Source: a phage
Assembly (NCBI GenBank): GCA_025677605.1
Contig: GCA_025677605.1_4110.1
DNA length: 64,000 nucleotides
Reading direction: 5' to 3' (one strand)
The position numbers and the translations under genes were made by a program. The notes beneath the pieces are model-generated. The model was not told the origin of the DNA. It did no database searches and saw only the letters and a program-made list of their open reading frames with translations. Each line of letters begins with the position of its first letter. Within the stretch, counting starts at the first letter, position 1. This document shows, in pieces, positions 13,979 through 48,833 of this stretch.

Positions 13979-14137
13979 TTAACCGCCGTGTTTAGAAAAT
14001 TCAACTGCTCTTAATTGTTTAAGTGCTTCTTTTCTGGTTGGGTGACGACCGAGAACTTTCTTCCCTGTGTGGTCAGTAACAACCCACTCATTTCCACGTT
14101 TCTGTATCTTTTCAGAAATAATATCAAGATAACGCAT
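13979..14137 (-). CDS. small hypothetical protein (52 aa, below ORF-track cutoff)
   Basis: ATG 14137 preceded by AAAGGAG RBS; translation MRYLDIISEKIQKRGNEWVVTDHTGKKVLGRHPTRKEALKQLRAVEFSKHGG; overlaps nrdG stop by 14 nt. Confidence 0.4.
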   Translation of the reverse strand: MRYLDIISEKIQKRGNEWVVTDHTGKKVLGRHPTRKEALKQLRAVEFSKHGG

Positions 14138-14603
14138 AATCTACTCCTTTACGAAGAATACGTTGATTATTAGAGCCTCTAAATGGTAATTCTAAATTCT
14201 TTTCTTCAAGAATAAATTTACCATCAACTAATACATCAATGTACTCTAGTATTGCGGAGGCATGATTATTTATTATTTCCTCTAAAGTATAACCACTCCA
14301 GCACCAAATATCTTTATTTGGATATTTTTCTTTTACTACTTTACATAACTCAATAACAGTACTGATATTCTTTGGCATCAATGGATCACCACCTAAAAGG
14401 GATAATCCTTGTACATATGGCTTGTTAAGTTCATTCAGGATGATTTCAACTGTTTCAGTACTGAATACTTCCCCACTGCGATAATCCCATGCTTTTTCGT
14501 TGAAGCATTCTTCACATCCGTGGCTACACCCTGAAACAAAAAGGGAGCATCTAACTCCCTCCCCATTAACTAAATCATCCTTGATTATCGTTTGGTAATT
14601 CAT
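14124..14603 (-). CDS. nrdG: anaerobic ribonucleotide reductase activating protein (radical SAM)
   Basis: 159 aa with CSHGCEEC (C-x3-C-x2-C) iron-sulfur motif; adjacent to nrdD. Confidence 0.85.
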   Translation of the reverse strand: MNYQTIIKDDLVNGEGVRCSLFVSGCSHGCEECFNEKAWDYRSGEVFSTETVEIILNELNKPYVQGLSLLGGDPLMPKNISTVIELCKVVKEKYPNKDIWCWSGYTLEEIINNHASAILEYIDVLVDGKFILEEKNLELPFRGSNNQRILRKGVDYALS

Positions 14604-14910
14604 CTAATATTGCACTCACTATTTCCACAAGAACATCACCATGACATGATTTTGGCTTACAAAAGCACCCAAGACGCTTCCCAGCCAATTCAAGTAGTTC
14701 TTCGATAGTAACCTCACCATTTTCAATTCTTTGGATAAGATACTCTCTGAACTTCTCAATCGACTCTTCTCGTGTCGGAACTATAAACTCTGCCTTTGTT
14801 TGTTTGTCATTAATGTGGGTAAATGGATTTCCCCATTTGGACCCACGACCAATATACACATCATATGGTTCTTTATATTTGTTAACTACAATTGGTTTTA
14901 AGTCCATCAT
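14575..14910 (-). CDS. conserved hypothetical protein (GNPF motif)
   Basis: 111 aa, [12 protein letters not shown] motif, Cys pair [11 protein letters not shown]; family assignment not verified. Confidence 0.45.
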
Positions 14911-15269
14911 AGACCTTTAGTAAAAGTACGATTGATTACATCATCTTGTTGTTCTTTTGTTAGTGAATTGAAACGAACTGCATAACCACTAACACGAATT
15001 GTAAGTTGCGGATACTTTTCTGGATTATTTTGTGCATCAATGAGTTGTTCTTTAGATAGAACATTTACATTCAAGTGCTGACCACCTTCAATATTCGGTG
15101 CGTGTTGAATTTCCACATCACGCAGTACCTCGCCATCAAAAGTACTCAAAAGTACTTCATCATCTTCGGAAAAGGTCTTTGATACAATAATACGTGCAAT
15201 ATCATTTTCTATTAGCATGATAGTTCCACGGTGCTCACCTGACATGACTTGTTTACCTTGAATTGACAT
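14907..15269 (-). CDS. autonomous glycyl-radical cofactor (GrcA/YfiD-like; T4 Y06I-like)
   Basis: 120 aa; C-terminal [11 protein letters not shown]....[32 protein letters not shown] matches the GrcA glycyl-radical domain. Confidence 0.8.
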
Positions 15270-15278
15270 AATATCTCC

Positions 15279-17084
15279 TTACATGTGTTGTATACGTTGA
15301 ATAACTTCAGCTTGTTTACCTTTATTGAACGGGCGACTATTTGGTGCACTAAGATATCCTGATACTCTGCGAATAACCGACATTGTACGTTCATTGCGGT
15401 TGTCACATACCGGACAATGGAAACCATTTTTATCTACACTAAATTCACCCTCAAAATCACATTCAAAACACTTATCGACCTTCTGATTAATACCAAAATA
15501 TGGAATTTTAGTATAAGCAAAATTTATTAATGTTTCAAGTGCTTGTATATTATTAGCTAGATTTGGTGTTTCGACATAGCTAATATTACCACCATTGCTT
15601 AGATAAGCAAAGTTTTCCTCATAATCCCATTTAGCAAAAGGTGTACTTTCAACCCATACTGGTTGATGGAATGAGTTAGTGATAAAGTCACGTTTCAGTA
15701 CTGAAGGATGTTTTGCCTCAATACAACGTGCAAATTTATAACATAGTGATTCTGCTGGTGTACCGTAAAGACTAAATGCAATGTTACTCTCTTTTTTGAA
15801 TTCATCACATTTTGCTTTCATGTAGTTCAAAATACTCATACAGAACTCTTTACTAATTGAACCAGTGAGGATCTCTGAGCACTCAGATAACCCAACATAA
15901 CCAATACTGATACTAGCATAACCATTATAAAATAAATGGTCAATAGTGTCTTCAGGATCAAGACGTGCAATCGCACCTTCAGCGAAAAGTATAGGGTTTT
16001 GTTTTGCCTTTGTACCTTTTAAACGTTCTACACGGTTCATCTGTGCTCTGTAAGCAATATTCATGTGCTCGTCAATCTTATCAAAGAAATCACCATCAGA
16101 CTCACTCTCAAGAGCAATTAGTGGTAAGTTGATAGACACAACGCCAAGGTTGAATCTACCATTGTATTTTTCTTCTCCTTGTATATTTTCCCATTTCCCT
16201 AAGAAACTTCTGCATCCCATAGGAGTAACAGGAATAGTTGTGCTTCCAGTAACTTTTTGATTCAAAGGTACTGATACAAAATCAGGATAGATGCGTTTAG
16301 CTGCACAACGCATAGCTAATTGTTTTAAGTCATAATTACAATCAGTACTGTTCATATTAATTCCATCCTGAAGAAAGAATATTACTTTAGGGAATACTGG
16401 AGTAATCTTATCTTTACCTAGTCCATTTTCATGTACTTTCAAATATTGTTCAGTGATTAGTTTTTCAAATTTAGATGTACCTAATCCTAAACTCAAAGAA
16501 ATGAACGCAGCCTGACCATTAGTACTGATCATTGAGTTTGTTTGATATAGAATTGTTTGACAACCGTCATAAACTTCCTTACGCAACTCATCTTCGATGA
16601 ATTCAGTACTAAGATTGTATTTCTTTTGTTTTTCTAGAAGTTTATCCCATGACTTTTGTACATATGGTGCAAGGCCAGTGTCAATGTGAGCCAACGACTG
16701 ACCACCGTACTGTGAACTTGCCACAGCCTGAACAATCTGTGTTAGTACTGTACAAGCTACCCCAAAGCTTTTTGGTTCTTCAATCTTGGCACAACCAATC
16801 ATGAAGCCATTAGCAAGCATATCAGGATAATTAACTAAACAACAGTTTGTTAATGGGCTAATGTAATAGTCTAAATCATGAATATGACCGTAACCTTCAT
16901 TATGCCACTTCATCAATTCATCAGGAATCACATCTTGGGAATAATGTTTAGAAAGAATACCTGCCAATAAATCACGATGTGTATTAACACATTTAGCGTC
17001 TTTATTTGCATTTTCGTTTGTTAAATCAGCGTTACTCTGGTTGAGGAAGTTAGTTACGTCCGTATATAATTTATCTATTTGCAT
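15279..17084 (-). CDS. nrdD: anaerobic ribonucleoside-triphosphate reductase
   Basis: 601 aa; C-terminal Zn-ribbon cysteines (CFECDF...CPVCDN) and glycyl-radical motif RRVSGYL; co-located with nrdG. Confidence 0.9.
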   Translation of the reverse strand: MQIDKLYTDVTNFLNQSNADLTNENANKDAKCVNTHRDLLAGILSKHYSQDVIPDELMKWHNEGYGHIHDLDYYISPLTNCCLVNYPDMLANGFMIGCAKIEEPKSFGVACTVLTQIVQAVASSQYGGQSLAHIDTGLAPYVQKSWDKLLEKQKKYNLSTEFIEDELRKEVYDGCQTILYQTNSMISTNGQAAFISLSLGLGTSKFEKLITEQYLKVHENGLGKDKITPVFPKVIFFLQDGINMNSTDCNYDLKQLAMRCAAKRIYPDFVSVPLNQKVTGSTTIPVTPMGCRSFLGKWENIQGEEKYNGRFNLGVVSINLPLIALESESDGDFFDKIDEHMNIAYRAQMNRVERLKGTKAKQNPILFAEGAIARLDPEDTIDHLFYNGYASISIGYVGLSECSEILTGSISKEFCMSILNYMKAKCDEFKKESNIAFSLYGTPAESLCYKFARCIEAKHPSVLKRDFITNSFHQPVWVESTPFAKWDYEENFAYLSNGGNISYVETPNLANNIQALETLINFAYTKIPYFGINQKVDKCFECDFEGEFSVDKNGFHCPVCDNRNERTMSVIRRVSGYLSAPNSRPFNKGKQAEVIQRIQHM

Positions 17085-17318: not shown

Positions 17319-17504
17319 TTAATTAGTCTCATCTGGACTCCATGTAATAGTTACAGTAAATGTACCTTCCTGGAATCCATACTCATCTTGTGGAATTTGA
17401 GCAACTAATGGATTGAATCTGGAATTAAACGCTTCATGTACATCACGTTGGATATCACAGATACTTTCACCATCATATTCTTTTTTAAAAATTTCAATCT
17501 GCAT
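17319..17504 (-). CDS. hypothetical protein
   Basis: 61 aa ORF. Confidence 0.4.
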   Translation of the reverse strand: MQIEIFKKEYDGESICDIQRDVHEAFNSRFNPLVAQIPQDEYGFQEGTFTVTITWSPDETN

Positions 17505-17904
17505 TTAAACGTAATGACCCTCGTATTGTCTCTGGATAACTGTCTAATAGATCGATTAGCCTATTAAACGCATGAGTACTGATGAATGGATGTTTCTTCG
17601 CGAGTTCGATGCGTTTCTCAAAATCCATTAATGTAATCTCGGTTCTATTGAAACTACCTTTACGTCTGTACGTTAGTAAACGCTCTTTGTGTCCATTAAG
17701 CTGGAAATCAAAATATGTTGTTGCAGTATAATCACTATCATCACTGATAGGCTTTGAAATATCCAGATTATACGTAGATCCAAATGCGAAAAAGAAACCA
17801 CCATCTTCCAATGGGATATCTTTATCGCTTAGATTGAAATCTGTTTCATCACCTAGTATATCAAATATCTTTCTACTTAATTTTAGAAACTCATCTTCTA
17901 ACAT
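17494..17904 (-). CDS. hypothetical protein
   Basis: 136 aa ORF. Confidence 0.5.
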   Translation of the reverse strand: MLEDEFLKLSRKIFDILGDETDFNLSDKDIPLEDGGFFFAFGSTYNLDISKPISDDSDYTATTYFDFQLNGHKERLLTYRRKGSFNRTEITLMDFEKRIELAKKHPFISTHAFNRLIDLLDSYPETIRGSLRLNAD

Positions 17905-17906
17905 AG

Positions 17907-18128
17907 TTATTCCTCGTTTTCATTTGGAATACAATATACAAATACTAAATGCTTAAAGTGATCAGTACTGGAATATAATGCCAATTCATGTAATGGGAAA
18001 TTGGTATCTTTAAATTTACCATTTTCGTATATAGTTATTTGTAACGAATGTTTTGGCTCAAAAATATAATAGTACATTATTGATTCACCAAACAGTACAG
18101 TATGGTGCTGATATCGTTCAATTTTCAT
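17907..18128 (-). CDS. hypothetical protein
   Basis: track ORF 17907-18176 trimmed to internal Met to avoid 52-nt overlap with upstream deaminase-like gene; start uncertain. Confidence 0.4.
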   Translation of the reverse strand: MKIERYQHHTVLFGESIMYYYIFEPKHSLQITIYENGKFKDTNFPLHELALYSSTDHFKHLVFVYCIPNENEE

Positions 18129-18493
18129 GTATGGATAATCTCTTTTACCCCGTACTCCTGAATTGCTAATGTACAAATCTCACAAGGTTTTGCTGAAACT
18201 GGAATTCCATCTTTACTTACACGAGCGATAAGAAGAGTATGTACTTCAGCACGAGCAGCAAGAAGACACGAAATTTCAGCGTGTAAAAATTCCCCTTGAG
18301 GGCGACCAGCACGAATTGCAAAGCCTTTCTGCTTAGGGTGAGTCTGTGTGTAAGAGTTGGTACGAGTAGCCAGTACTCGACCTTTCTTATCCAGTGCACG
18401 AGCAATTACTCTATACCGTTTGTAATTGCCAACTTGTTCAATCGGCGGCATCTCACGGAGTTCTTCTACCAGTTTAAGCAATTTCGGGTTCAT
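18125..18493 (-). CDS. CDA-fold zinc deaminase-like protein (second deaminase, distinct from cd)
   Basis: 122 aa with HAE...PCEIC zinc-binding signature of cytidine/deoxycytidylate deaminase superfamily. Confidence 0.55.
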   Translation of the reverse strand: MNPKLLKLVEELREMPPIEQVGNYKRYRVIARALDKKGRVLATRTNSYTQTHPKQKGFAIRAGRPQGEFLHAEISCLLAARAEVHTLLIARVSKDGIPVSAKPCEICTLAIQEYGVKEIIHT

Positions 18494-19107
18494 ATGTTGT
18501 AGTCTATGCCTTTTCTAAGTGATTCCTCAAGCACCCATAGTTTACATTCCTCGGATTGTAAATGTTTGTTTGCCTCTTCTTGTTCTTCTATTGTACAAGT
18601 TTTGAGGAATTCTTTCAAGGCTTTTATTGTACCTTTAATGTTTTCAATATCACCTGGAATATAATCAAGTTCAATTTCAGATAATTTTGAGTTCTCCCAT
18701 GTGTTACGAAGTTCTGCTGGTTGGAACATTGATGAAGGAAAAGCACTTTTCGTCACTACACGCTGATGTACAGCATCATACTTAGCTTCCGCTTCTTCTT
18801 GTGTGTAATCACCGTACTTTTCTAGGATCTTGGTGTATAAATTATCAATTGCTTCTTCATATGTATCACCACCACAATCCAACTCGTACTCATGTCCACG
18901 AACGAACTTCCCTTCGTCTTCATCGAAAAACGGAGTTAGCATTTCGATCCAGTACTGTGTTTTTGTATTCAGTGCCGGATAATCTTCAATACGATTGGTG
19001 ATAGGACATACATCGTGTGGCTCAACATCAATGCGAGCATCAACGTAGTCTTTATTGATAAATTCAGGGTGTCCCAAAATCCACCAGTACTTTTGTGATG
19101 TTGTCAT
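18490..19107 (-). CDS. hypothetical protein
   Basis: 205 aa ORF, coupled to neighbours. Confidence 0.5.
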   Translation of the reverse strand: MTTSQKYWWILGHPEFINKDYVDARIDVEPHDVCPITNRIEDYPALNTKTQYWIEMLTPFFDEDEGKFVRGHEYELDCGGDTYEEAIDNLYTKILEKYGDYTQEEAEAKYDAVHQRVVTKSAFPSSMFQPAELRNTWENSKLSEIELDYIPGDIENIKGTIKALKEFLKTCTIEEQEEANKHLQSEECKLWVLEESLRKGIDYNI

Positions 19108-19114
19108 GATATCC

Positions 19115-19474
19115 TCAAATGTAACGTTTCTTTTTATAATCGTACCCTATTGCTTTGTAAAAGTCAAATAACGAAGCATGTTCAAACGTAGGTAATAGAT
19201 CATATGGGTGCTGATAGTTTGCAATGCCAACAATTTTAAGCATTGATACCGCAGTTCTTGCATTCTCTTCATCCCATTCGTCTAAACGCCAAAGGGAACA
19301 AAGTACTGCTCGTTCATGTTGCTTACCGAGAAAGAATTCAGCTTCACGGTCACGGAATGCACCTACGCTGATAGTACTTTTGTACCAGTCTTTCTCACCA
19401 TAAGCTGGTAGACGAATGATGTGCTTTTCTTCAGCTTTACCAAAACGATGTAGGAATGCAACATAATCACTCAT
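19115..19474 (-). CDS. hypothetical protein
   Basis: 119 aa ORF. Confidence 0.5.
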   Translation of the reverse strand: MSDYVAFLHRFGKAEEKHIIRLPAYGEKDWYKSTISVGAFRDREAEFFLGKQHERAVLCSLWRLDEWDEENARTAVSMLKIVGIANYQHPYDLLPTFEHASLFDFYKAIGYDYKKKRYI

Positions 19475-19496
19475 AGTTTATATCCCATTACGTCTT

Positions 19497-19730
19497 TCAT
19501 TGAGCATCCTTTGGGACTGTTGTTAAGCGTTTGCGGTTAACAATTTTGCGACACATAAGATTTAGATCCTGTCCGTGACGCATCTCATGACAGGCATAGA
19601 GTGTGCCATTATGATTCAGTTTAGTTAAGTCCTTACGGATCATTTCTGCATCCATCTCGTTAACTTTAGGTGCACAGCCTACGAGTAAGGTTGCCCCAGC
19701 AACTAAACAAGAAATGATAATCTTTTTCAT
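19497..19730 (-). CDS. small lipoprotein
   Basis: 77 aa; signal peptide MKKIIISCLVAGATLLVGC with lipobox LVGC. Confidence 0.55.
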   Translation of the reverse strand: MKKIIISCLVAGATLLVGCAPKVNEMDAEMIRKDLTKLNHNGTLYACHEMRHGQDLNLMCRKIVNRKRLTTVPKDAQ

Positions 19731-22714: not shown

Positions 22715-24154
22715 TTACATATTTTCTTCTGCAAACTCTGCAAGTGCAGAACGTACAACACCTTCCAATTCAATGATACGACACCCTTCCCAATCTTTGA
22801 ATTTTTCAGTTACATATGTCAAACCACTATTAACTGGACTAATAAACTTACTATCAATCTGTGCTAAGTTACCCATAATGATAACCTTACAGTTTTGACC
22901 TGCACGGGTAAGAATAGTTTTTGCCTGTGCAGGGGTGATGTTCTGGAATTCATCAACAATTAGAATTGTATTAGTAAAAGAACGACCACGAATAAAGTTC
23001 AATGCTTTAAACTGCATTACGTTACGTTTGAGAATCTCTTCAATGCTACCTTGTGGGTTAGCATCATCTTTGTGTAGATACTCTAGAGCATCGATTGCAG
23101 CCCCACAGAATGGGATGACCTTTTCAGCTTCAGAACCGGGTAAGAAACCAATTTCTTCAAATTGTGAATCTTGTGTTTTGGAGAAGATGATACGATCGTA
23201 TTTACGCTTCTCTAGTACTAATTCGAGTGAAGTAGCAACAGTAATCAATGTTTTACCAGTACCTGCTGAACCAAGTAGTACTGTCAAATGTACATCAGGG
23301 TCAAGAATACTGTTAATTGCTAGTGCCTGTTGAATATTCTTTGCTTTAATATCCCAAACTTTAGCACGAAGAGCGATACTTTGACCAATATCCTGGAATA
23401 CCAAAATATCTTCAGGTGTTAGTGAACCGTCTTCTTCTTCGATAGCAGATTGACCTTCGTATACGAATAGTACATCAGCATTATCATATAGATAATCACC
23501 AATACATAGATTATCTGGAAGAACATCTTGAATCAATGCGGTTGGAATATAGTGATATAGACGGCGACCTTCTTGTTGGGATTTAATTTCAGCATTGTTA
23601 ACTTCACTGAATGTTTTCCAGAAATCAATATCAAGGTGGTGCTGCCCAATATGAATCAACTCACTATCTTCGATTGCAACGTCATGACGGTAATCTTGTA
23701 CCTCAACACCGTAGCTCATTGCTTTGATACGCATGTTAATGTCGCGAGTTACCAGTACTGATTGTGATGCCAAAGCCACTAGAATGATTTTGTCATCTGG
23801 TACAGTACTTTTAAGTAGAGTTTCTACTTTATCTTCACTGCCGCCCATACGAATAAGTGCTTCAGCTTCTTCATTCGTCATAACGAATAGCTTACTGGAT
23901 GCATCCATATTTTTGTGGATATTGGCAATATTAACACCAGTACTGCTGATTTCTTCATGAGTAGCATCTTTCAAAATTGCATCGATGTTACGGATTGCGA
24001 AACGTGCATCACGTGATACGTCAACATTACGGCTCTTGATTGAATCAAGTTCTTCAAGAACAGTGAATGGTAGAATCACTGCTGCCCCATCAAATGCTAC
24101 GGTTGCATTTGGATCGGATAGTAGTACGTTTGTGTCAATTGTGTATTTTTTCAT
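22715..24154 (-). CDS. phoH: PhoH-family ATPase with N-terminal PIN domain (YlaK-like)
   Basis: Walker A GSAGTGKT; N-terminal PIN-like region; likely ATG at 24154 (MKKYTIDTN) with AGGA RBS. Confidence 0.75.
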   Translation of the reverse strand: MKKYTIDTNVLLSDPNATVAFDGAAVILPFTVLEELDSIKSRNVDVSRDARFAIRNIDAILKDATHEEISSTGVNIANIHKNMDASSKLFVMTNEEAEALIRMGGSEDKVETLLKSTVPDDKIILVALASQSVLVTRDINMRIKAMSYGVEVQDYRHDVAIEDSELIHIGQHHLDIDFWKTFSEVNNAEIKSQQEGRRLYHYIPTALIQDVLPDNLCIGDYLYDNADVLFVYEGQSAIEEEDGSLTPEDILVFQDIGQSIALRAKVWDIKAKNIQQALAINSILDPDVHLTVLLGSAGTGKTLITVATSLELVLEKRKYDRIIFSKTQDSQFEEIGFLPGSEAEKVIPFCGAAIDALEYLHKDDANPQGSIEEILKRNVMQFKALNFIRGRSFTNTILIVDEFQNITPAQAKTILTRAGQNCKVIIMGNLAQIDSKFISPVNSGLTYVTEKFKDWEGCRIIELEGVVRSALAEFAEENM

Positions 24155-24218
24155 AAAACATCCTTGAGTTATGAGCACATCCTTGTGCTCTACGGTAGAT
24201 TATAGACTCAGACACTTC

Positions 24219-24858: not shown

Positions 24859-25407
24859 TTATAAGTAACTAATCAGTAAATTCTCGGATTGAACAAGATG
24901 TTCTAATTCCATTTTAGCAGTTCCTATGAAGTTTTGTGTCATAAGATTATTATATCCTGCTTCTCGGTTTTGTCCCTTTGAATAACGAGAAATGTGACAT
25001 AAATTAACACCAGCCACTTCTGCACTTGCATGTTTAGCAGTACTGTATCCATCGCGAATCGCTTTCAATTCTTCGTAAGTAACTTCATAACTATAGCTAT
25101 GGGTATGTGCTCCTAGATATAGTTCGTAAGTTTTCAATGGTTTCAATTGTTCGATGAAAATATTATAATTCATCTCTTCCTGAATTTCACGGAATAGTGC
25201 ATCTTCTAAGGTGGCATCGGTATCTTCGACTGTTCCACCACAACCACCCAGTAAACCATCCCAACGAAGCTGGAGTAATACCAGATTCACAACAGGGATA
25301 TCATTTAATTCATAACCTTTATATGGGTTACAATTTCGAGCAAAGAAGTAACAGAATACAAAGTTTGCTCGTTTACCATACTCACCTAGAGGTACTTCTC
25401 GAATCAT
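24859..25407 (-). CDS. Nudix-like hydrolase (divergent Nudix box)
   Basis: GGCGGTVEDTDATLEDALFREIQEEMN resembles Nudix box G-x5-E-x7-REUxEExGU with a short insertion. Confidence 0.5.
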   Translation of the reverse strand: MIREVPLGEYGKRANFVFCYFFARNCNPYKGYELNDIPVVNLVLLQLRWDGLLGGCGGTVEDTDATLEDALFREIQEEMNYNIFIEQLKPLKTYELYLGAHTHSYSYEVTYEELKAIRDGYSTAKHASAEVAGVNLCHISRYSKGQNREAGYNNLMTQNFIGTAKMELEHLVQSENLLISYL

Positions 25408-26156
25408 TTCATTCTATCCTTAATGATAGTTTCCAGTACTGGAATCGCTTTTGTAGCTGGTTTTATAATTTTTTCATTGAACATGAAATCGTTATCATTT
25501 TTTCTGATGTTGATATTAATACTAAAGCATGGCAAACAAGCAACCAGATGTGACCATTTCAGTACTGTGTCACTGCTACCAATGACTACAACTGTATCAT
25601 CTTCTGTTAAGGATTGCAATACTAAATTACGCTCATCGTATATTGGGAGTTTTTCACCATCAACATAACGATAATATTCACCAATGAACACTACGTTTGG
25701 TTTCGCAAAGACACCTTCTTTCGGAATGTACGGTTCATAACCACAATCCACAATACTATAATCGTCACCACCAATTGTAAAATTCTCAATAACTTCTTTT
25801 AAATTACCATGTAACTTTAATTCATTGCCACCAATACGAGTATAGAGATCATCCATATTCGAAGTCATATGTAAAAAGTTATCACCGTATGTATCTTCTA
25901 GAGATTTGATATAATAATGCATATCATTAGGAACACAATCTTTCATTTTAACACGTAATGTGTTATAGAAAGTATGCACTAAATGGTACTTAGTACTAAG
26001 ACGTGCAATGTTACATACATCATTTATTTGAAATTGATCCCATAGGCCATCGTCCATGCGAAACGGTTCCATCCCACTTTCAACGGATAGACCTGCACCG
26101 GAAATAACCAATACACGTTTATTACCTTTATTTTTTATAAAAGAGTCAGAAATCAT
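25404..26156 (-). CDS. Sir2-family (sirtuin-like) NAD-dependent enzyme, no zinc-ribbon module
   Basis: GAGLSVESGMEPFR matches sirtuin NAD-binding motif GAG(I/L)S.ESGIP.FR; LHG catalytic-His motif; 4-nt stop/start overlap with Nudix gene. Confidence 0.75.
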   Translation of the reverse strand: MISDSFIKNKGNKRVLVISGAGLSVESGMEPFRMDDGLWDQFQINDVCNIARLSTKYHLVHTFYNTLRVKMKDCVPNDMHYYIKSLEDTYGDNFLHMTSNMDDLYTRIGGNELKLHGNLKEVIENFTIGGDDYSIVDCGYEPYIPKEGVFAKPNVVFIGEYYRYVDGEKLPIYDERNLVLQSLTEDDTVVVIGSSDTVLKWSHLVACLPCFSININIRKNDNDFMFNEKIIKPATKAIPVLETIIKDRMK

Positions 26157-28854: not shown

Positions 28855-31023
28855 ATGAAAGCAATATCTAGTGAAGGTAAATTGCCTTTTGGTATTGGTG
28901 GTATTAAAGTTTCTGTCGCTAAAATCGATGGTAAGGTGTTAACCGAAACTTTATATATTAACCGTCAACGTTCCGGTAACGTGTATGATCTCATCAATGA
29001 TAATGGTGATATCTATTACAAAGTTTCCATGCGTTGGTATGATACTCGTGGTATCGACATTCCAAATTCTGTTGAACCAGCAGACGCAATTAATATGGTT
29101 CAAGACAATTCATTCATGATCTATGTTGATGATGGTATTAGCATGGGATATACTATGCTTTATATGGGTCGTGTTATTAAATTAAATAATGGTCGCATCG
29201 TAAAACGCGATTATGTTAATGCTGATATCCCCGTAACTGGTGTTGTAATTACACCCAAAGATGCATCTCTTAAAGTTGGTGCAACAAAACAACTATCAGC
29301 CCAAGTAGTTCCATCTAATGCAAAAGACAAGGCAGTAACCTACTCTTCATCTGCTCCTACAATCGTTGAAGTTGATGCTCAAACAGGTCTAGCAACTGCA
29401 CTTGCAAATGGCAATGCTGATGTAACCGTAACAACTCACGATGGTGATTTCACAGATGTGTGTTCTATCGTTGTCAGTACTGGTGTTACAGGTGTTACTG
29501 TTTCTCCTAAAACTGCAACGGTGAATGTTGGAGAAACTCAACAATTGTTAGCTGAAGTTTCTCCTGCATCTGCAACTGATAAGAAAGTTACATGGGCTTC
29601 ATCTGCTCCATCCGTTGCAACAGTTGATAAAGATTCTGGGTTGGTAACAGGTGTATCCAATGGTGATGTTACTATTACTGCAACAACTGAAGATGGTTCA
29701 TTGACTGATACTTCTTCTATTAAAGTTCAAACAGCAGTAACTGGTGTTACGTTAACACCTGAAACATATACATTCACTACTATTGGTGCAAATGAACCAT
29801 TAACAGCAACGGTACTACCAAGAACTGCATCAAATCAGGAAGTTCGTTATGAATCTTCTGCACCTACAGTAGCAGAAGTTGATGATGACGGTTTAGTAAC
29901 TTCTGTTAATAATGGTACTGCCACTATTACCGTAACAACTATTGATGGTGAAAAAACCGCACAATCAATTATTGATGTGACGATCCCAGTAACTGGTATT
30001 AACCTAACACCTGCAACCGCTTCATTAACTTCTGTTGGTGCAACACAGCAATTAACTGCAACTGTTCTACCAGCTAATGCTCGTAACAAAGCAGTAACAT
30101 ACGCAACTTCTGCTGCTGGTGTTGCAACCGTTAGTACAAGTGGTTTAATCACTGCGGTAGCGAATGGCACTGCTAATATCACGGCTACTACTGCTGATGG
30201 TGGCTTTAGTAAAGTTTGTGCAGTAACTGTAGCAATTCCAGTTCCAGTAACAACTATTAATGTTACTCCAGCAACTAAAACATTGACTGCTGTTAACGCA
30301 ACTCAAGCAATGGCTGCTGAAGTTCTTCCAGCTAACGCAACTAATAAAGCTGTAACATGGTCTTCTAGTGCACCTGCTGTAGCGAAAGTTGATGCTAGTA
30401 CTGGTGTTGTAACTGCGTTAACTAACGGTACTGCAAACATTATCGCAACTGCCGCTGATGGAAGTGGTAAAACAGGTCAAGGTGTCATTACTGTGTCAAT
30501 CCCAGTTCCTGTAGCTAGTGTTTCTGTTTCTCCAACAACAGCAACATTAACATCTGTTGGTGCAACTCAACAACTAACACCAACTGTACTACCAGCTAAT
30601 GCTACTAACAAAGCAGTAACTTATAGTACTTCTGCTGCTGGGGTCGCAACTGTTAGTGCAAGTGGTTTAATCACTGCTGTTGCAAACGGTACTGCTGATA
30701 TCACTGTAAAAACTACTGATGGTGCAAAAACTGCAAAATGTGCTGTAACTGTTAATATTCCAGTACCAGTATCCAGCGTTGGTTTAACACCTAAAGCCAC
30801 TGATCTTTCACTATCAGGTACTAAAACAGTTCAACTAGTTCCAGAAGTTCTTCCAGCTAACGCAACTAACAAATCAGTAACTTATAGTGCAGATGAACCT
30901 ACTAAAGTATCTATTAGTGATGATGGATTAGTAACTGCTCTAGAAGAAGGTACTGTAGTCATTACAGTGACTACTGTGAATGGCAATAAAACTGATACTG
31001 CAACTGTAACAATCAGTGCTTAA
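28855..31023 (+). CDS. island paralogue B: shared N-terminal domain fused to seven tandem Big_2 (bacterial Ig-like) domains
   Basis: 722 aa; N-terminal domain paralogous to A and C; then seven ~85-aa repeats of pattern VTGV.. P.tat..vG.tqqL.a.VLPanAtnK.VT..SS.p.vAtV...GlvTav.nGTa.ITa.T.DG. Confidence 0.85.
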   Translation: MKAISSEGKLPFGIGGIKVSVAKIDGKVLTETLYINRQRSGNVYDLINDNGDIYYKVSMRWYDTRGIDIPNSVEPADAINMVQDNSFMIYVDDGISMGYTMLYMGRVIKLNNGRIVKRDYVNADIPVTGVVITPKDASLKVGATKQLSAQVVPSNAKDKAVTYSSSAPTIVEVDAQTGLATALANGNADVTVTTHDGDFTDVCSIVVSTGVTGVTVSPKTATVNVGETQQLLAEVSPASATDKKVTWASSAPSVATVDKDSGLVTGVSNGDVTITATTEDGSLTDTSSIKVQTAVTGVTLTPETYTFTTIGANEPLTATVLPRTASNQEVRYESSAPTVAEVDDDGLVTSVNNGTATITVTTIDGEKTAQSIIDVTIPVTGINLTPATASLTSVGATQQLTATVLPANARNKAVTYATSAAGVATVSTSGLITAVANGTANITATTADGGFSKVCAVTVAIPVPVTTINVTPATKTLTAVNATQAMAAEVLPANATNKAVTWSSSAPAVAKVDASTGVVTALTNGTANIIATAADGSGKTGQGVITVSIPVPVASVSVSPTTATLTSVGATQQLTPTVLPANATNKAVTYSTSAAGVATVSASGLITAVANGTADITVKTTDGAKTAKCAVTVNIPVPVSSVGLTPKATDLSLSGTKTVQLVPEVLPANATNKSVTYSADEPTKVSISDDGLVTALEEGTVVITVTTVNGNKTDTATVTISA
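29236..31020 (+). repeat. tandem array of seven Big_2-coding repeats (~255 bp each)
   Basis: repeat units 4 and 6 (about 30010-30180 and 30550-30720) are roughly 85 percent identical at DNA level by eye. Confidence 0.7.
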
Positions 31024-31482: not shown

Positions 31483-31743
31483 TCATTTATTTAACTTTTC
31501 AACAACATAATCAACATCAATTTGGTTATCATAGTAAATTGTAAAGCCAAATCTACCAGTTACTTTCATTTCACGACCAGTAGTGTGGCTAACATTCACA
31601 ATGTAGTACTTGTTATTATGCGGGGAAAAACGTACTTGATAATTCTTATTACCACGCATTGAATAATCAGTATCAACTAAACAATAGATAGCAAACAATA
31701 CAAATATAACAATACAACCTAGAAACAAATATACCATTGTCAT
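31483..31743 (-). CDS. small membrane protein
   Basis: 86 aa with N-terminal TM segment VYLFLGCIVIFVLFAIYCLV. Confidence 0.5.
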   Translation of the reverse strand: MTMVYLFLGCIVIFVLFAIYCLVDTDYSMRGNKNYQVRFSPHNNKYYIVNVSHTTGREMKVTGRFGFTIYYDNQIDVDYVVEKLNK

Positions 31744-32222
31744 TTATTGAGTCCATTATCATAGATACAATTTACAATAATCCCAGCATCTTCCAGTACT
31801 TTAATAGCTTCTGGTGGAGTGCGAGGATACGATTTTTCGTAAATTACACGAGAAATACCACTACCAGCGATTAACTTAGAACAAGTATAGCACGGTTGGA
31901 GTGTGGTGTAAAGTGTTGCACCCTGACGTTCTTGTGGTGAACTATATAGTAATGCATTCATTTCCGCATGGATCTCATGAATGTTGCTCCACTCGTGATG
32001 TAAGTGTTTTGCATCTTCATCAATCCAATCCTGAAACTGACCATTGTTTACGAGATGTTTATTAACATCACAACAGTTAGGTTGCTTTGATGGTGTACCG
32101 TTATATCCAGTACTCAATACTCGGTTATTCTTTACAATAACACAACCTACTTTCTGGGAAAGACACTTACTTTCCTCAGCAACGACACTGGCTATCTTCA
32201 ACCACGTTGTATGTTTCATCAT
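31740..32222 (-). CDS. cd: dCMP deaminase
   Basis: HAEMNAL and PCYTCSKLI zinc-binding motifs; overall collinear with T4 Cd. Confidence 0.85.
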   Translation of the reverse strand: MMKHTTWLKIASVVAEESKCLSQKVGCVIVKNNRVLSTGYNGTPSKQPNCCDVNKHLVNNGQFQDWIDEDAKHLHHEWSNIHEIHAEMNALLYSSPQERQGATLYTTLQPCYTCSKLIAGSGISRVIYEKSYPRTPPEAIKVLEDAGIIVNCIYDNGLNK

Positions 32223-45393: not shown

Positions 45394-45411
45394 GGGATCA
45401 GTACTGATCCC
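45394..45411 (-). terminator. palindromic terminator hairpin centred on CAGTACTG
   Basis: perfect 18-nt palindrome gggatcagtactgatccc flanked by A-rich run; minus-strand U-rich tail; downstream of pseT. Confidence 0.5.
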
Positions 45412-45421
45412 TTTGTAATAA

Positions 45422-46354
45422 TCAAAATAGTCCAGGTTCCACCTGAAATACTTTCAAGCCTAGTAGCTTACGCCACATGAATACAACGGCGGCCCTGTCA
45501 TCAAATACTTTCTTAACATCGTAATGATTAACAACGTTATTCATATACAACTCGAATTTGACAACATCATCAGGACGTTTATCATCGATAGCTCGCATTA
45601 ACAATACATCGTAGGGAATGCCCCAATTCTTAAGCCACTGTTCAGTATCAGCACGACACCCTTCAGTACGCCCACTCATGACGATTACCTTACGCTTATG
45701 GAAAACAGCCTCAGCAATGACAGACAGAATTACTTCTTCATCTGGTGTATCCTGAAGGACAGTACTTTCATCAAACGGGTTACGTCCCCACTTATGAGCA
45801 AGAGTACCGTCGATATCAACAATGATAGCAGCTTCACGTGCATTACCATAGTAACCAATGTGTAATGCCTTTCTATAATAGTACGTATCTGCCATTGTGT
45901 CAATGATATCATATTGAACTGAACGCTCACGCTGGAGGTTATATTTCTTACAAAGTTTTACGAACTCTTTAATCTTAAAGAATTCATGAACATCTGCACC
46001 ACGGTCTTCATTAGGCACAAAATCATCATAGAAGTTCTTTTCTTTGTAATCATAACCATTATCTTTAGCCCAACGTTTCCATTCATCACGAAAACCTTGT
46101 TTCAGGTTCGTATCGGACACAATAATATTCCATCCATTCGCTGCTGCGGCGTTTGCTGCACTGAACTGTTGATTAGTTACGTACTTCTCGTTCGCATCAG
46201 TGAATTTATAAGCATCATGTGACCCAGCCATAGACTCTCGAATATCATCACGGTTGATGTTGATAGTCTTGGACTTTGCTTTTTTAATTTCTTGCACTGC
46301 CCACGTGGTTTTACCACATCCTGGCAATCCAACTGTTAGTGTAATAGTTGGCAT
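45422..46354 (-). CDS. pseT: polynucleotide 5-prime kinase / 3-prime phosphatase
   Basis: N-terminal P-loop GLPGCGKTT and C-terminal HAD-phosphatase motif IVDIDGTLA; 310 aa, near T4 Pnk size. Confidence 0.85.
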   Translation of the reverse strand: MPTITLTVGLPGCGKTTWAVQEIKKAKSKTININRDDIRESMAGSHDAYKFTDANEKYVTNQQFSAANAAAANGWNIIVSDTNLKQGFRDEWKRWAKDNGYDYKEKNFYDDFVPNEDRGADVHEFFKIKEFVKLCKKYNLQRERSVQYDIIDTMADTYYYRKALHIGYYGNAREAAIIVDIDGTLAHKWGRNPFDESTVLQDTPDEEVILSVIAEAVFHKRKVIVMSGRTEGCRADTEQWLKNWGIPYDVLLMRAIDDKRPDDVVKFELYMNNVVNHYDVKKVFDDRAAVVFMWRKLLGLKVFQVEPGLF

Positions 46355-46666
46355 TTAATCCTCAATAAATTTCACATTCTTTAGATTGTACCACGAAAAA
46401 CGTTCATGTCGTGTGTTGTGTCCTATAGTTACTTCTACATAGCACTCGTCAGAAATGTGATGAGTAACTACATGAAATTTAACATTAACATCACTAATGA
46501 TAGTTTCGAACCATGTTTTAGTGTTGTAATCCCAGCATTCAACTTTCTTACCAATGAGTGATTTCTTGTATTGTGTAATCATATCATGAACAATTTCAGA
46601 AATAGTATTAGTTAATTCAATTTCTGCATTCATTAAATTATTAAGTTCTTTTAATGCTTTATTCAT
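46355..46666 (-). CDS. small paralogue-family protein
   Basis: 103 aa; KKSLIGKKVECW motif. Confidence 0.45.
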   Translation of the reverse strand: MNKALKELNNLMNAEIELTNTISEIVHDMITQYKKSLIGKKVECWDYNTKTWFETIISDVNVKFHVVTHHISDECYVEVTIGHNTRHERFSWYNLKNVKFIED

Positions 46667-46920
46667 TAGATTACCTCAATAATATCATCAATTGAGATAC
46701 CAATACAATTATCGACAGTGATATTCAATGTAAAATCATCATCTACATATACATTAGTGATTTTACCATAAACATTCATCCCATCATAAGATGATTTATA
46801 ACGTACTCTTTTGTTAATATATTTTGCACGTAGAGTATTACTCTCACGGTACAATATATCCGTCAAACATTCTGATAGTACTTTATAATATAACAAATCA
46901 CTTGAATGATTGTTTTTCAT
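46666..46920 (-). CDS. small paralogue-family protein
   Basis: likely ATG 46920 (MKNNHSS...; track start is TTG); AKYINKRVRY motif. Confidence 0.45.
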   Translation of the reverse strand: MKNNHSSDLLYYKVLSECLTDILYRESNTLRAKYINKRVRYKSSYDGMNVYGKITNVYVDDDFTLNITVDNCIGISIDDIIEVI

Positions 46921-47134
46921 TGTATTTCCCAACTCCAAATCGCTTGGAGATTTTTACAAGTACAGCTTCATCACAACGAATACTAGCAGTGTCATTGGAT
47001 GAACTGTACTTTAAGGGGGTCCACTGTAATTGAGATTCTTCAAGGAACTTGATACATCTGAAGTAATCTTTCAGAGAAAGAAACTTAACCACTGACATAT
47101 CCTGAACAATACTATGCTGAACTTCAACTTTCAT
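46898..47134 (-). CDS. hypothetical protein
   Basis: 78 aa ORF. Confidence 0.4.
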   Translation of the reverse strand: MKVEVQHSIVQDMSVVKFLSLKDYFRCIKFLEESQLQWTPLKYSSSNDTASIRCDEAVLVKISKRFGVGKYNEKQSFK

Positions 47135-47143
47135 ATGAACTCC

Positions 47144-47401
47144 TTATAGTGGATCGAATTTATTTTCACGTTTTGATGTATAGCGAGTTACATCATGTAT
47201 TCTCGGCTTAACATCCTTTGGTTTCCTTTTCTTCTTATATTCAGTACTACTACACCCAAAAGTATTCTCGATTCGCTTCTTACTAATCTTCACACCTTTC
47301 ATTGAGCGTTTGTGCTGTAAATCATCGATTTCTTGTTGTATTTTCCTGAACTCAGTAGGAGAAAGGGAACCATCATTTTTATACTTAGGTTTAGCCATCA
47401 C
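47144..47401 (-). CDS. small basic protein
   Basis: 85 aa, Lys/Arg-rich. Confidence 0.45.
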   Translation of the reverse strand: MMAKPKYKNDGSLSPTEFRKIQQEIDDLQHKRSMKGVKISKKRIENTFGCSSTEYKKKRKPKDVKPRIHDVTRYTSKRENKFDPL

Positions 47402-47427
47402 TTCTCCTTGTGCTGGGCTAGTTAGTA

Positions 47428-48573: not shown

Positions 48574-48833
48574 CTAATTACCTCTATATCTACATCTGTG
48601 CCATAGTAGGAAACGTAACCATTATCTGACTTACATTGAATTGATAACTCTGATTCATAGTATGTTACTTTGATCACTGTTAGAACTTTTTCTTCAATTT
48701 CTCCCGTTAAATAATCCATTTCACGAACACGAATGTTGGTTCCTTTTGGGAGTTCTTGTGCAATTTTATTAACAAGTTCAAAAGCAGCTTCTTCAAGTGT
48801 GTGCAACAATTGCAATCTATCTTGGATATTCAT
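48570..48833 (-). CDS. small paralogue-family protein
   Basis: likely ATG 48833 (MNIQDRL...) one base after stop of upstream gene; track start 48878. Confidence 0.45.
   Translation of the reverse strand: MNIQDRLQLLHTLEEAAFELVNKIAQELPKGTNIRVREMDYLTGEIEEKVLTVIKVTYYESELSIQCKSDNGYVSYYGTDVDIEVIR

What the first reader, a model, noticed from the sequence alone, without database searches (positions are those of the whole stretch)
18125..18493. Second, divergent CDA-fold deaminase in addition to dCMP deaminase
A 122-aa protein with HAE and PCEIC zinc-ligand motifs belongs to the cytidine/dCMP deaminase superfamily but is much shorter than, and unrelated in detail to, the canonical cd gene at 31740-32222. 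Small deaminases of this fold include nucleic-acid editing and toxin-type enzymes, so its substrate (free nucleotide, tRNA, DNA) is open.
Basis: partly seen in the sequence, partly recalled or inferred. Interest (0 to 1): 0.5.

Follow-up and report, generated by a model that had tools for sequence, protein, structure and literature searches.

The report
Phage-only miniature zinc deaminase gene
The 122-residue gene is a real second zinc deaminase in this jumbo coliphage, from an uncharacterised phage-only family of stripped-down deaminases that most likely convert cytosine nucleotides to uracil nucleotides for thymidine synthesis, though no substrate has ever been tested.

Summary
Window 18125-18493, minus strand, encodes a 122-aa protein with HAE (residues 71-73) and PCEIC (103-107). 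It passes the Pfam PF00383 cut-off and is under strong purifying selection (dN/dS 0.05).

The window is an Asteriusvirus jumbo coliphage, 99% identical to phage A4, where this gene is labelled "dCMP deaminase". A T4-like cd lies at 31740-32222. BLASTP finds no alignment between the two proteins.

The small protein belongs to a large family of single-domain proteins of about 100-145 aa, which includes phiKZ gp260. The family has a signature N-S-Y-x-K-T-H-P-x-Q insert and is uniformly basic (median pI 9.65). It is found almost only in phages.

Predicted structures show the window protein ending at strand 4 of the fold. Longer relatives add a strand 4-5 hairpin, as in cytidine deaminases, rather than the helix 4 of dCMP deaminases and TadA. 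Profile searches nevertheless rank dCMP deaminases as the closest solved relatives.

In three other complete phage genomes (phiKZ, DES1, Aeromonas 2L372D) the family member is the only zinc-type deaminase, and each genome also has a thymidylate synthase. The most likely role is therefore deamination of free cytosine nucleotides (confidence about 0.5). A role on DNA or RNA is the main rival (about 0.2). No biochemistry for this family was found.

The parts
18125..18493 (-). Coding sequence of the 122-aa miniature zinc deaminase (stop codon included). It is the orthologue of A4_486, RaK2 ORF518, GAP32_134 and phiKZ gp260.
   Evidence: dN/dS is 0.05. The AlphaFold2 model has pLDDT 91.7.
18275..18283 (-). 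HAE motif, residues 71-73: the first zinc ligand (His) and the catalytic Glu, at the start of helix 2.
   Evidence: H71 and E73 are invariant and A72 is at least 90% conserved in 57 family members. Helix 72-80 is seen in the model.
18173..18187 (-). PCEIC motif, residues 103-107: the second and third zinc ligands, at the start of helix 3.
   Evidence: P103, C104 and C107 are invariant. Helix 105-114 is seen in the model.
18329..18358 (-). Family signature NSYTQTHPKQ, residues 46-55. [quoted passage not shown]
   Evidence: N46 and P53 are invariant; H52 and Q55 are at least 90% conserved. Helix 53-61 is seen in the model. The meaning of the insert position comes from Iyer 2011.
18490..19107 (-). 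Upstream 205-aa protein of unknown function (PHROG_16370). Its stop codon overlaps the deaminase start (ATGA). It lies immediately upstream of the deaminase in three Rak2-like genera.
   Evidence: 39% identical in RaK2, 36% in GAP32, same position in both. No Pfam match.
17907..18128 (-). Downstream 73-aa ORF (A4_487). Its ATG at 18128 overlaps the deaminase stop codon. It is not conserved outside close relatives.
14124..17084 (-). Anaerobic ribonucleotide reductase block downstream on the same strand: nrdD (15279-17084), a GrcA-like glycyl-radical ORF (14907-15269), DUF4326 (14575-14910) and nrdG (14124-14603). This synteny with the deaminase is conserved.
   Evidence: The same order is seen in RaK2, GAP32 and PBECO4.
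31740..32222 (-). Canonical T4-type dCMP deaminase (cd, 160 aa), given here as the comparator. It has HAEMNA...PCYTC and residues matching the T4 second zinc site.
   Evidence: (A4_461).

Best explanation
The gene encodes a catalytically competent zinc-dependent hydrolytic deaminase. It belongs to a phage-restricted 'mini-deaminase' family that appears to derive from dCMP-deaminase-like stock and has been pared down to the fold's minimal core: helix 1, strands 1-2, an inserted THPxQ helix, helix 2 with HAE, strand 3, a short hairpin, helix 3 with PCxxC, and strand 4.

Its most likely job is to deaminate a free cytosine (deoxy)nucleotide to the uracil form, or a 5-substituted dC nucleotide to the matching dU/dT form. 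The candidate substrates are dCMP, dCDP or dCTP. The product would feed the phage's thymidylate synthase during replication.

Unlike T4-type Cd, it would work without allosteric dCTP/dTTP control. Conserved basic residues (K50 in most members, H52, R91, K102) are inferred to hold the phosphates.

In this phage it acts alongside the regulated Cd. It may differ from Cd in which phosphorylation state it prefers. Its fixed position just upstream of the NTP-reducing NrdD/NrdG would fit a dCTP or dCDP preference.

Shown here: the gene is real, catalytic residues are conserved, the predicted fold is truncated, the family is phage-restricted, and the genomic contexts are as described. Inferred: the substrate, the lack of regulation, and the phosphate-binding role of the basic residues.
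For: Catalytic residues are invariant across 57 diverse members, and dN/dS is 0.05.

Profile searches against solved structures rank dCMP deaminases first: S-TIM5 5.9e-11, S. mutans 2.1e-9, T4 2.2e-6. TadA scores 1.6e-5 and CDA 1.9e-3.

Four of the five residues that contact the dC moiety in T4 Cd (Asn40, Ala105, Glu106, Pro131; PMC12697855) have conserved counterparts here (N46, A72, E73, P103).

Whole-genome scans show the family member as the only zinc-deaminase signature in three genomes:
- Xanthomonas phage DES1, which also has ThyX and a class I RNR.
- Aeromonas phage 2L372D, which also has ThyX, dUTPase and class I and III RNRs.
- phiKZ, which also has ThyA.

The gene lies in replication or nucleotide-metabolism modules:
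- Upstream of nrdD-nrdG in three Rak2-like genera.
- Between a CobS-like ATPase and primase/helicase/PolA in about 30 environmental phage loci, with ThyX within 8 kb in 6 of them.
- Near DnaB, topoisomerase and NUDIX genes, or ThyX, RecA and dNMP kinase genes, on other contigs.

Promiscuity across dCMP, dCDP and dCTP has been demonstrated for related phage and bacterial enzymes.
Against: No member of the family has been assayed, and nothing was found in the searchable literature.

This phage already has a T4-type Cd, and phiKZ already has a dCTP deaminase, PHIKZ214. A canonical cd lies within 8 kb of the mini-deaminase in 5 environmental loci. Plain redundancy therefore needs explaining.

The protein lacks helix 4 and strand 5, which all canonical dCMP deaminases have. 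It also lacks the second zinc site.

The family is uniformly very basic: median pI 9.65, and 75 of 75 environmental members above pI 9, against 36% of background ORFs and pI 7.0-8.7 for canonical cds. That is more typical of proteins that bind nucleic acids.

Confidence: 0.5

Rival explanations
1. It is a polynucleotide cytosine deaminase: a very small, basic enzyme that deaminates C (or 5mC) in single-stranded DNA or RNA. The target could be host or competitor nucleic acid, phage transcripts, or replication intermediates.
For: The family is uniformly highly basic, with net charge about +8 on roughly 120 aa and 12 alignment columns that are at least 60% Lys/Arg.

Loss of C-terminal elements leaves the pocket uncapped on that side. 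Among known deaminases, such truncations are described for toxin-type and nucleic-acid-acting clades and for Bd3614 (Iyer 2011).

The gene occurs alongside dedicated dUMP-supplying deaminases in this phage, in phiKZ and in 5 environmental loci.

Phage proteins annotated as dCMP deaminases have been shown to deaminate 5mC and C in ssDNA (bioRxiv 10.1101/2024.12.05.627091).

Against: There is no conserved downstream immunity-like gene, no fusion to targeting or trafficking domains in the 120 best profile hits, and no uracil-glycosylase inhibitor was noticed nearby.

The family member is the only zinc deaminase in three phages that have a thymidylate synthase.

The strand2-helix2 insert could cap the pocket.
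Confidence: 0.2
2. It deaminates another small molecule. Candidates are a nucleoside (cytidine or deoxycytidine, as for tetrameric CDA), a purine or pterin-like base, a modified or signalling nucleotide used by host immunity, or an antibiotic-like nucleoside (as for blasticidin S deaminase).

For: A non-redundant function would explain why the gene coexists with Cd or Dcd.
Against: The first zinc ligand is His, not the Cys typical of CDA and blasticidin S deaminase. TIGR01354 scores 15 bits against a cut-off of 113.65.

There is no PADLOC match and no link to known anti-defence loci. Sequence profiles favour dCMP deaminases. No conserved neighbouring gene points to a special metabolite.
Confidence: 0.12
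3. It is a TadA-like tRNA adenosine-34 deaminase, as some automatic annotations of family members state.
Against: The C-terminal helices that TadA uses to hold the anticodon loop are absent. No NCBIfam TadA match was found.

None of phiKZ's seven tRNAs has A at position 34, and the window has no tRNA genes. Environmental carriers of about 40-60 kb place the gene inside the replication module.
Confidence: 0.03
4. It is a catalytically dead or purely regulatory remnant of a deaminase.
For: The fold is extremely truncated. Some members, such as phiKZ gp260, have HSE instead of HAE.
Against: All zinc ligands and the catalytic Glu are invariant across hundreds of divergent sequences. dN/dS is 0.05. 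The four-strand, three-helix core that remains is the part of the fold that carries the active site.
Confidence: 0.03

Closest known systems
dCMP deaminases of the short, single-zinc type (cyanophage S-TIM5 dCD, PDB 4P9C; S. mutans ComEB-type dCD, PDB 2HVV) and T4 Cd (PDB 1VQ2)
   Same: These are the best profile matches among solved structures (5.9e-11, 2.1e-9, 2.2e-6). The shared sequence features are 'L/I-S-x-G-x-N' before the pocket Asn, HAE, and 'PCxxC..AI...GIK.V.Y'. The residues that contact dC are conserved. [quoted passage not shown] Both kinds of gene are phage-encoded and sit in nucleotide-metabolism contexts.
   Different: The mini-deaminase is 20-70 residues shorter. It has no helix 4 or parallel strand 5; the window protein ends at strand 4, and long relatives have an antiparallel 4-5 hairpin. 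It has no second zinc site. The G-Y-N-G motif is replaced by x-N-S-Y followed by K-T-H-P-x-Q. It carries an extra hairpin with a conserved Arg and Gly before PCxxC. Its pI is about 9.7 against about 7. BLASTP finds no alignment to this phage's own Cd.
Tetrameric cytidine deaminase (CDD/CDA) and blasticidin S deaminase (the C-terminal hairpin division of Iyer et al. 2011)
   Different: These enzymes use Cys-x-Glu and the PCGxCRQ motif. The mini-deaminases use His-Ala-Glu, score far below the TIGR01354 cut-off, and rank below dCMP deaminases in profile searches. The window protein lacks strand 5 altogether.
TadA/Tad2 tRNA adenosine deaminases
   Different: The mini-deaminase has no C-terminal RNA-binding helices. 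No A34 tRNA substrate is encoded in phiKZ. It has the family-specific THPxQ insert.
Phage 5mC-selective cytidine deaminases (mSCD-B5 and relatives, bioRxiv 10.1101/2024.12.05.627091)
   Same: Both are phage proteins annotated as dCMP deaminases (PF00383 and PF14437). The mSCD enzymes turned out to have non-canonical substrates: 5mC and 5hmC nucleotides, and ssDNA.
   Different: mSCD-B5 is a 154-aa protein with the prototypical dCMP-deaminase fold. Its gene sits next to a thymidylate-synthase homologue that makes 5m-dCMP. No such gene lies near the window gene, and no cytosine hypermodification is known for Asteriusvirus.
Pseudomonas phage phiKZ gp260 (PHIKZ260) and the Rak2-like orthologues (RaK2 ORF518, GAP32_134, 121Q gp490)
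   Same: These belong to the same family (33-71% identity). All are uncharacterised. GenBank notes have recorded the similarity since the RaK2 and GAP32 genome records were annotated.
   Different: phiKZ gp260 has HSE instead of HAE and sits among small early-type genes rather than next to nrdD.

Membership tests
CDA / dCMP deaminase zinc-binding superfamily (Pfam PF00383) | [H/C]-A-E and P-C-x-x-C zinc-binding and catalytic motifs, with a Pfam score above the gathering threshold | tested here: met
   HAE at residues 71-73 and PCEIC at 103-107. PF00383 scores 30.5 bits against a cut-off of 25. All 57 family members sampled match PF00383.
CDA / dCMP deaminase zinc-binding superfamily (Pfam PF00383) | Three-layer alpha/beta/alpha fold with a four-strand 2134 core sheet and helices 1-3 | tested here: met
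Canonical dCMP deaminase (T4 Cd / ComEB / DCTD; Helix-4 division) | Helix 4 between strands 4 and 5, so that strand 5 runs parallel to strand 4 (Iyer 2011) | tested here: not met
   The window protein ends at strand 4, residues 118-121 of 122. The 143-aa relative P0050 has a tight strand 4-5 hairpin and no helix 4. The family's length after PCxxC is bimodal, 15-17 or 25-29 residues.
Canonical dCMP deaminase (T4 Cd / ComEB / DCTD; Helix-4 division) | [quoted passage not shown] | tested here: inconclusive
   An insert is present at this position (helix 53-61, THPxQ). The second-zinc ligands are absent. The window's canonical cd has counterparts to them.
Canonical dCMP deaminase (T4 Cd / ComEB / DCTD; Helix-4 division) | G-Y-N-G motif associated with the dCTP/dTTP allosteric site, and a hexameric regulated enzyme (from my own knowledge of the S. 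mutans and S-TIM5 structures) | tested here: not met
   The motif is T-N-S-Y in the window protein and x-N-S-Y in the family consensus. Oligomeric state could not be tested.
Canonical dCMP deaminase (T4 Cd / ComEB / DCTD; Helix-4 division) | Significant sequence similarity to characterised dCMP deaminases | tested here: inconclusive
   The family profile matches S-TIM5 dCD at 5.9e-11 and S. mutans dCD at 2.1e-9. The single sequence finds nothing significant in the PDB, no NCBIfam ComEB hit, and no BLASTP alignment to the phage's own Cd.
Canonical dCMP deaminase (T4 Cd / ComEB / DCTD; Helix-4 division) | dCMP to dUMP activity | not testable with these tools
   This needs an enzyme assay.
TadA/Tad2 tRNA A34 deaminase | C-terminal helices beyond the core that contact the anticodon loop | tested here: not met
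   The protein ends at strand 4. The feature is described in Iyer 2011.
TadA/Tad2 tRNA A34 deaminase | An available tRNA with A34 as substrate in the same genetic system | tested here: not met
   The phiKZ tRNA anticodons are tgt, gtt, gtt, gtc, cat, tgg and taa. The window has no tRNA genes. Host tRNA-Arg(ACG) remains a formal possibility.
Tetrameric cytidine deaminase (TIGR01354) | C-x-E first ligand, PCGxCRQ motif, and a score above the equivalog cut-off | tested here: not met
   The motif here is HAE. TIGR01354 scores 15 bits against a cut-off of 113.65.
Polymorphic-toxin deaminases (MafB19, SCP1.201/DddA, YwqJ and others) | A deaminase at the C-terminus of a trafficking polypeptide, or a cassette with an adjacent immunity gene, together with a family-specific Pfam match | tested here: not met
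Phage 5mC-selective deaminases (mSCD) | Prototypical dCMP-deaminase fold of about 150 aa, encoded within about 3 kb of a thymidylate-synthase homologue that methylates or hydroxymethylates dCMP | tested here: not met
   The fold is truncated. Neighbours within about 3 kb have no thymidylate-synthase match. Activity on 5mC was not tested.

The most novel reading that the evidence does not exclude
The family could be the smallest natural polynucleotide cytosine deaminases, at 100-122 aa. On this reading they are phage enzymes that edit or mutate single-stranded DNA or RNA during infection, whether of the host, of rival elements or of the phage itself. The uniform positive charge would be the nucleic-acid-binding surface. 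The missing C-terminal elements would leave the pocket open to a polymer.
Probability: 0.2. Interest if true: 0.8.

Novelty: new variant of a known kind. Interest (0 to 1): 0.45.

Why it matters
If the family acts on nucleotides, it shows that a working cytosine-nucleotide deaminase can be built from about 100 residues, without helix 4, strand 5 or the second zinc site. It would also add an unregulated second route to dUMP or dUTP in many large phages, including the model phage phiKZ. Databases currently label these proteins 'dCMP deaminase', 'TadA' or 'hypothetical' without any test.

If the family acts on DNA or RNA, it would be a new class of ultra-compact natural deaminases. That would interest base-editor engineering and the study of phage-host conflict.

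Either way, one set of enzyme assays on this protein or on phiKZ gp260 would annotate several thousand metagenomic phage proteins.

Tried and rejected
- Single-sequence search of the PDB found nothing significant. Profiles were needed.
- NCBIfam gave no usable classification. Even the canonical cd falls below the equivalog cut-offs, so those thresholds are not a fair membership test.
- Pfam MafB19-like and Bd3614-like hits looked like a lead towards toxin clades. I rejected this because the canonical cd scores higher on the MafB19 model (56.9 bits) than any mini-deaminase tested.
- A search for domain fusions found none.
- PADLOC found no defence-related match.
- Gene neighbourhoods in phiKZ, S-SCSM1 and DES1 were mostly small unannotated genes and gave no conserved partner.
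- The CobT/CobS adjacency seen in about 30 environmental loci is probably synteny within one lineage rather than a functional link, and no literature connects them.
- Literature searches for any characterisation of phiKZ gp260 or of small phage deaminases found none. The S-TIM5 structure paper was not available.
- The first attempt to fetch related loci failed because the alignment was too diverse.
- The 'tRNA-specific adenosine deaminase' mentioned for phage Sharanji could not be tied to this gene. By gene order it is more probably the canonical cd.

Full report
**What is there.**

The window is part of an Asteriusvirus jumbo coliphage. The stretch 17400-19500 is 99.0% identical to Escherichia phage A4, a 355-kb genome.

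The flagged ORF is exactly as described, on the minus strand at 18125..18493, with an ATG start and 122 aa. HAE occupies residues 71-73 and PCEIC residues 103-107. A six-frame search of the whole window for the zinc-deaminase signature finds only this ORF and the cd gene at 31740-32222.

The ORF overlaps both neighbours by ATGA, so the three genes are probably translated as a coupled unit.

It passes the Pfam PF00383 threshold (30.5 bits against 25) and matches PHROG_174. Against the PBECO4 orthologue it shows 54 synonymous and 19 non-synonymous differences, giving dN/dS 0.05. It is a real gene under strong purifying selection.

The second deaminase is a T4-type Cd: 160 aa, 78 bits on PF00383, about 40% identical to Cd of T4-like phages, and annotated as A4_461. 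BLASTP of the two window proteins gives no alignment even at E<=100.

**The family.**

Close homologues come from Rak2-like jumbo phages. A profile search of 1.84 billion cluster representatives finds 846 at E<1e-10 and 3858 at E<1e-3. The best hits are all proteins of 96-166 aa.

A second profile search lists 855 proteins at E<=1e-8. The best 120 are all single-domain proteins of 99-156 aa with no fusions.

The family has a characteristic pattern: D-K-x-G-R-x-L-S-x-G-x-N-S-Y-x-K-T-H-P-x-Q ... L-H-A-E-I-x-A-L ... R ... G ... A-K-P-C-x-x-C-x-x-A-I ... G-I-K-x-V-x-Y/H-T. In this pattern N46, P53, H71, E73, P103, C104 and C107 are invariant. H52, Q55, A59, A72, R91, A101 and A110 are at least 90% conserved.

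The family is essentially phage-only.
- The same kind of scan over one genome from each of 185,579 bacterial and archaeal species gave 10 loci, all on short metagenome-bin contigs.
- Among 50,697 cultured phage genomes about 200 carry it. These are Rak2-like phages, phiKZ-like phages (PHIKZ260), large cyanophages, Aeromonas Plateaulakevirus, Xanthomonas DES1, Salicola SCTP-2 and others.
- The canonical cd type is found in 3491 cultured phage genomes.

**Structure.**

The AlphaFold2 model of the window protein has pLDDT 91.7. Its elements are helix 3-14, strands 28-34 and 40-45, an inserted helix 53-61, helix 72-80 (HAE), strand 86-92, a short hairpin, helix 105-114 (PCxxC) and strand 118-121. 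The chain then ends.

This is the minimal four-strand, three-helix core that Iyer et al. 2011 define for the fold. It lacks the fifth strand that distinguishes their two divisions.

Across 200 family members the length after PCxxC is bimodal: 15-17 residues, or 25-29 residues with a 'Y-T-x-x-x-G-...' tail.

A model of a long member (P0050, 143 aa, pLDDT 92.2) shows strand 125-130, a two-residue turn and strand 133-138. That is an antiparallel 4-5 hairpin, as in cytidine and blasticidin-S deaminases. It is not the helix 4 plus parallel strand 5 of dCMP deaminases and TadA.

- For P0050, TadA scores 13.0, S. mutans dCD 12.7 and CDA 12.2. CDA gives the longest alignment, 112 residues.

Sequence profiles are clearer. 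The family profile matches S-TIM5 dCD at 5.9e-11, S. mutans dCD at 2.1e-9, a Mycoplasma tRNA deaminase at 1.3e-7, T4 Cd at 2.2e-6, TadA at 1.6e-5 and CDA at 1.9e-3.

The family is therefore best described as a divergent, pared-down offshoot of dCMP-deaminase-like stock with an atypical C-terminus. Weak Pfam hits to toxin-type models are uninformative, because the canonical cd scores higher on them.

**Context.**

In Asteriusvirus, Alcyoneusvirus (RaK2) and Mimasvirus (GAP32) the gene order is conserved. A roughly 205-aa unknown protein comes first, overlapping the deaminase start. The mini-deaminase follows, then one to three small ORFs, then nrdD, a GrcA-like glycyl-radical protein, and nrdG.

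In about 30 of 75 environmental phage loci the order is a CobT-like vWA protein, a CobS-like AAA+ ATPase, the mini-deaminase, a Toprim primase, a DnaB-type helicase and PolA. ThyX lies within 8 kb in 6 loci and a canonical dCMP deaminase within 8 kb in 5 loci.

Other contigs place it beside DnaB, YAcAr, topoisomerase I and NUDIX genes. Another places it a few kb from PTH2, ThyX, RecA and dNMP kinase genes.

No partner is conserved across all clades.

**Whole-genome checks.**

I fetched three complete genomes and searched all six frames for the zinc-deaminase signature.
- DES1 (64.7 kb) has only the mini-deaminase. It also carries ThyX, a class I RNR and thioredoxin.
- Aeromonas phage 2L372D (123 kb) has only the mini-deaminase. 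It also carries ThyX, dUTPase and class I and III RNRs.
- phiKZ (280 kb) has only gp260, with HSE...PCPTC. It also carries ThyA (gp235), a dUTPase-fold dCTP deaminase (gp214) and thymidylate kinase.
- The anticodons of phiKZ's seven tRNAs all begin with T, G or C. A TadA-like role on phage tRNA is therefore excluded there.

In three independent lineages, then, the mini-deaminase is the only zinc deaminase in a genome that makes its own thymidylate. In this phage and in phiKZ it coexists with a dedicated Cd or Dcd.

**Interpretation.**

The weight of evidence favours a free cytosine-nucleotide deaminase that feeds thymidylate synthesis. That evidence is the profile similarity, the conserved residues that contact dC in T4 Cd, the cap-like insert, the replication and nucleotide-metabolism contexts, and the sole-deaminase status beside ThyX or ThyA.

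The loss of the G-Y-N-G motif and of the C-terminal elements suggests the enzyme is unregulated. This point rests on my own knowledge of the allosteric site in dCMP deaminases and is an inference.

Related enzymes accept dCMP, dCDP and dCTP. The strong positive charge could serve polyphosphate binding. I therefore suggest that in Rak2-like phages the enzyme may prefer dCTP or dCDP produced by NrdD, complementing Cd. This is an inference, not a result.

Confidence in the nucleotide-level mechanism is about 0.5. Confidence that the protein is an active deaminase of a distinct phage-specific family is about 0.9.

**The main rival.**

The family is uniformly basic. Median pI is 9.65, and 97% of members are above 8.5. 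All 75 environmental members are above pI 9, against 36% of 472 background ORFs of similar size. Canonical cds from the same loci and from the window have pI 6.95-8.7.

Twelve alignment columns are at least 60% Lys/Arg.

Three things keep a single-stranded DNA or RNA substrate plausible, at about 0.2:
- the positive charge;
- the pocket being open on the C-terminal side;
- the recent demonstration that phage 'dCMP deaminases' can deaminate 5mC and C in ssDNA.

Other small-molecule substrates are rated at about 0.12. TadA-like and non-catalytic readings are about 0.03 each.

**Novelty.**

The gene is already in GenBank, labelled 'dCMP deaminase', 'cytidine/deoxycytidylate deaminase' or 'hypothetical protein'. 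Its likeness to phiKZ ORF260 is recorded in the annotation notes of the RaK2 and GAP32 genome records. Papers on Asteriusvirus mention only one dCMP deaminase.

I found no biochemical or structural study of any member.

The family is thus a new variant of a known kind: a known fold and chemistry in a phage-specific minimal architecture with an untested substrate. It is of moderate interest. It would be of high interest if the polynucleotide reading proved true.

Noticed in passing
window 19107-19115, compared with L001 5753-6556 (A4_484): Phage A4 carries an extra 804-bp gene (267 aa, no Pfam match) between the 205-aa and 119-aa ORFs. The window lacks it, so a roughly 850-bp indel sits in an otherwise 99%-identical region.
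   Followed up: partly
window 14907-15269 (-): A 120-aa stand-alone glycyl-radical domain protein lies between nrdD and nrdG. It matches Pfam Gly_radical, resembles GrcA/YfiD, and corresponds to 'vs.6' in the RaK2 annotation. The 601-aa NrdD appears to keep its own RVSGYL glycyl-radical motif, so this looks like a spare-part radical cofactor.
   Followed up: partly
window 14575-14910 (-): A DUF4326 protein is inserted between the glycyl-radical ORF and nrdG. A gene lies at the equivalent position in RaK2, where it is annotated nrdA.1; I did not compare the two sequences.
   Followed up: no
window 22715-24178 (-): A PhoH-like ATPase is fused to an N-terminal PIN nuclease domain (487 aa).
   Followed up: no
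window 25404-26156 (-): A phage-encoded Sir2-family protein (PF02146, E 1.9e-19) lies close to ClpP-like protease genes. Sir2 domains are usually discussed as host NAD+-depleting defence effectors, so a phage copy is worth a look.
   Followed up: no
window 28855-31023 (+): A 722-aa protein has seven Big_2 Ig-like repeats. It is one of the few genes on the plus strand, flanked by short 'structural protein' ORFs. It is probably a capsid or tail decoration protein.
   Followed up: no
window about 45400-48600 (-), matching A4_427 and A4_432: An RNA ligase and a polynucleotide kinase/3'-phosphatase lie near each other. This is a T4-like tRNA-repair pair that would counter anticodon nucleases.
   Followed up: no
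environmental loci L004-L083, genes at positions -2 and -1 relative to the mini-deaminase: About 30 uncultured phage contigs of roughly 40-60 kb share the order CobT-like vWA protein, CobS-like AAA+ (AAA_5 + CbbQ_C), mini-deaminase, primase, helicase, PolA. The role of the CobS/CobT pair in phages is unknown, and its fixed position at the head of the replication module is unexplained.
   Followed up: partly
L100 9655-10008: On a 142-kb phage contig the gene just upstream of the mini-deaminase encodes a YAcAr (SLOG-type, predicted nucleotide-binding) domain and overlaps it by 8 bp. This could be a lead to a nucleotide-related partner.
   Followed up: no
L002 5175-5285 (phiKZ 246947-247057): phiKZ gp260 and the Aeromonas phage 2L372D member use H-S-E instead of H-A-E in helix 2. 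This is a natural variant at a position that is Ala in almost all known CDA-fold deaminases.
   Followed up: no
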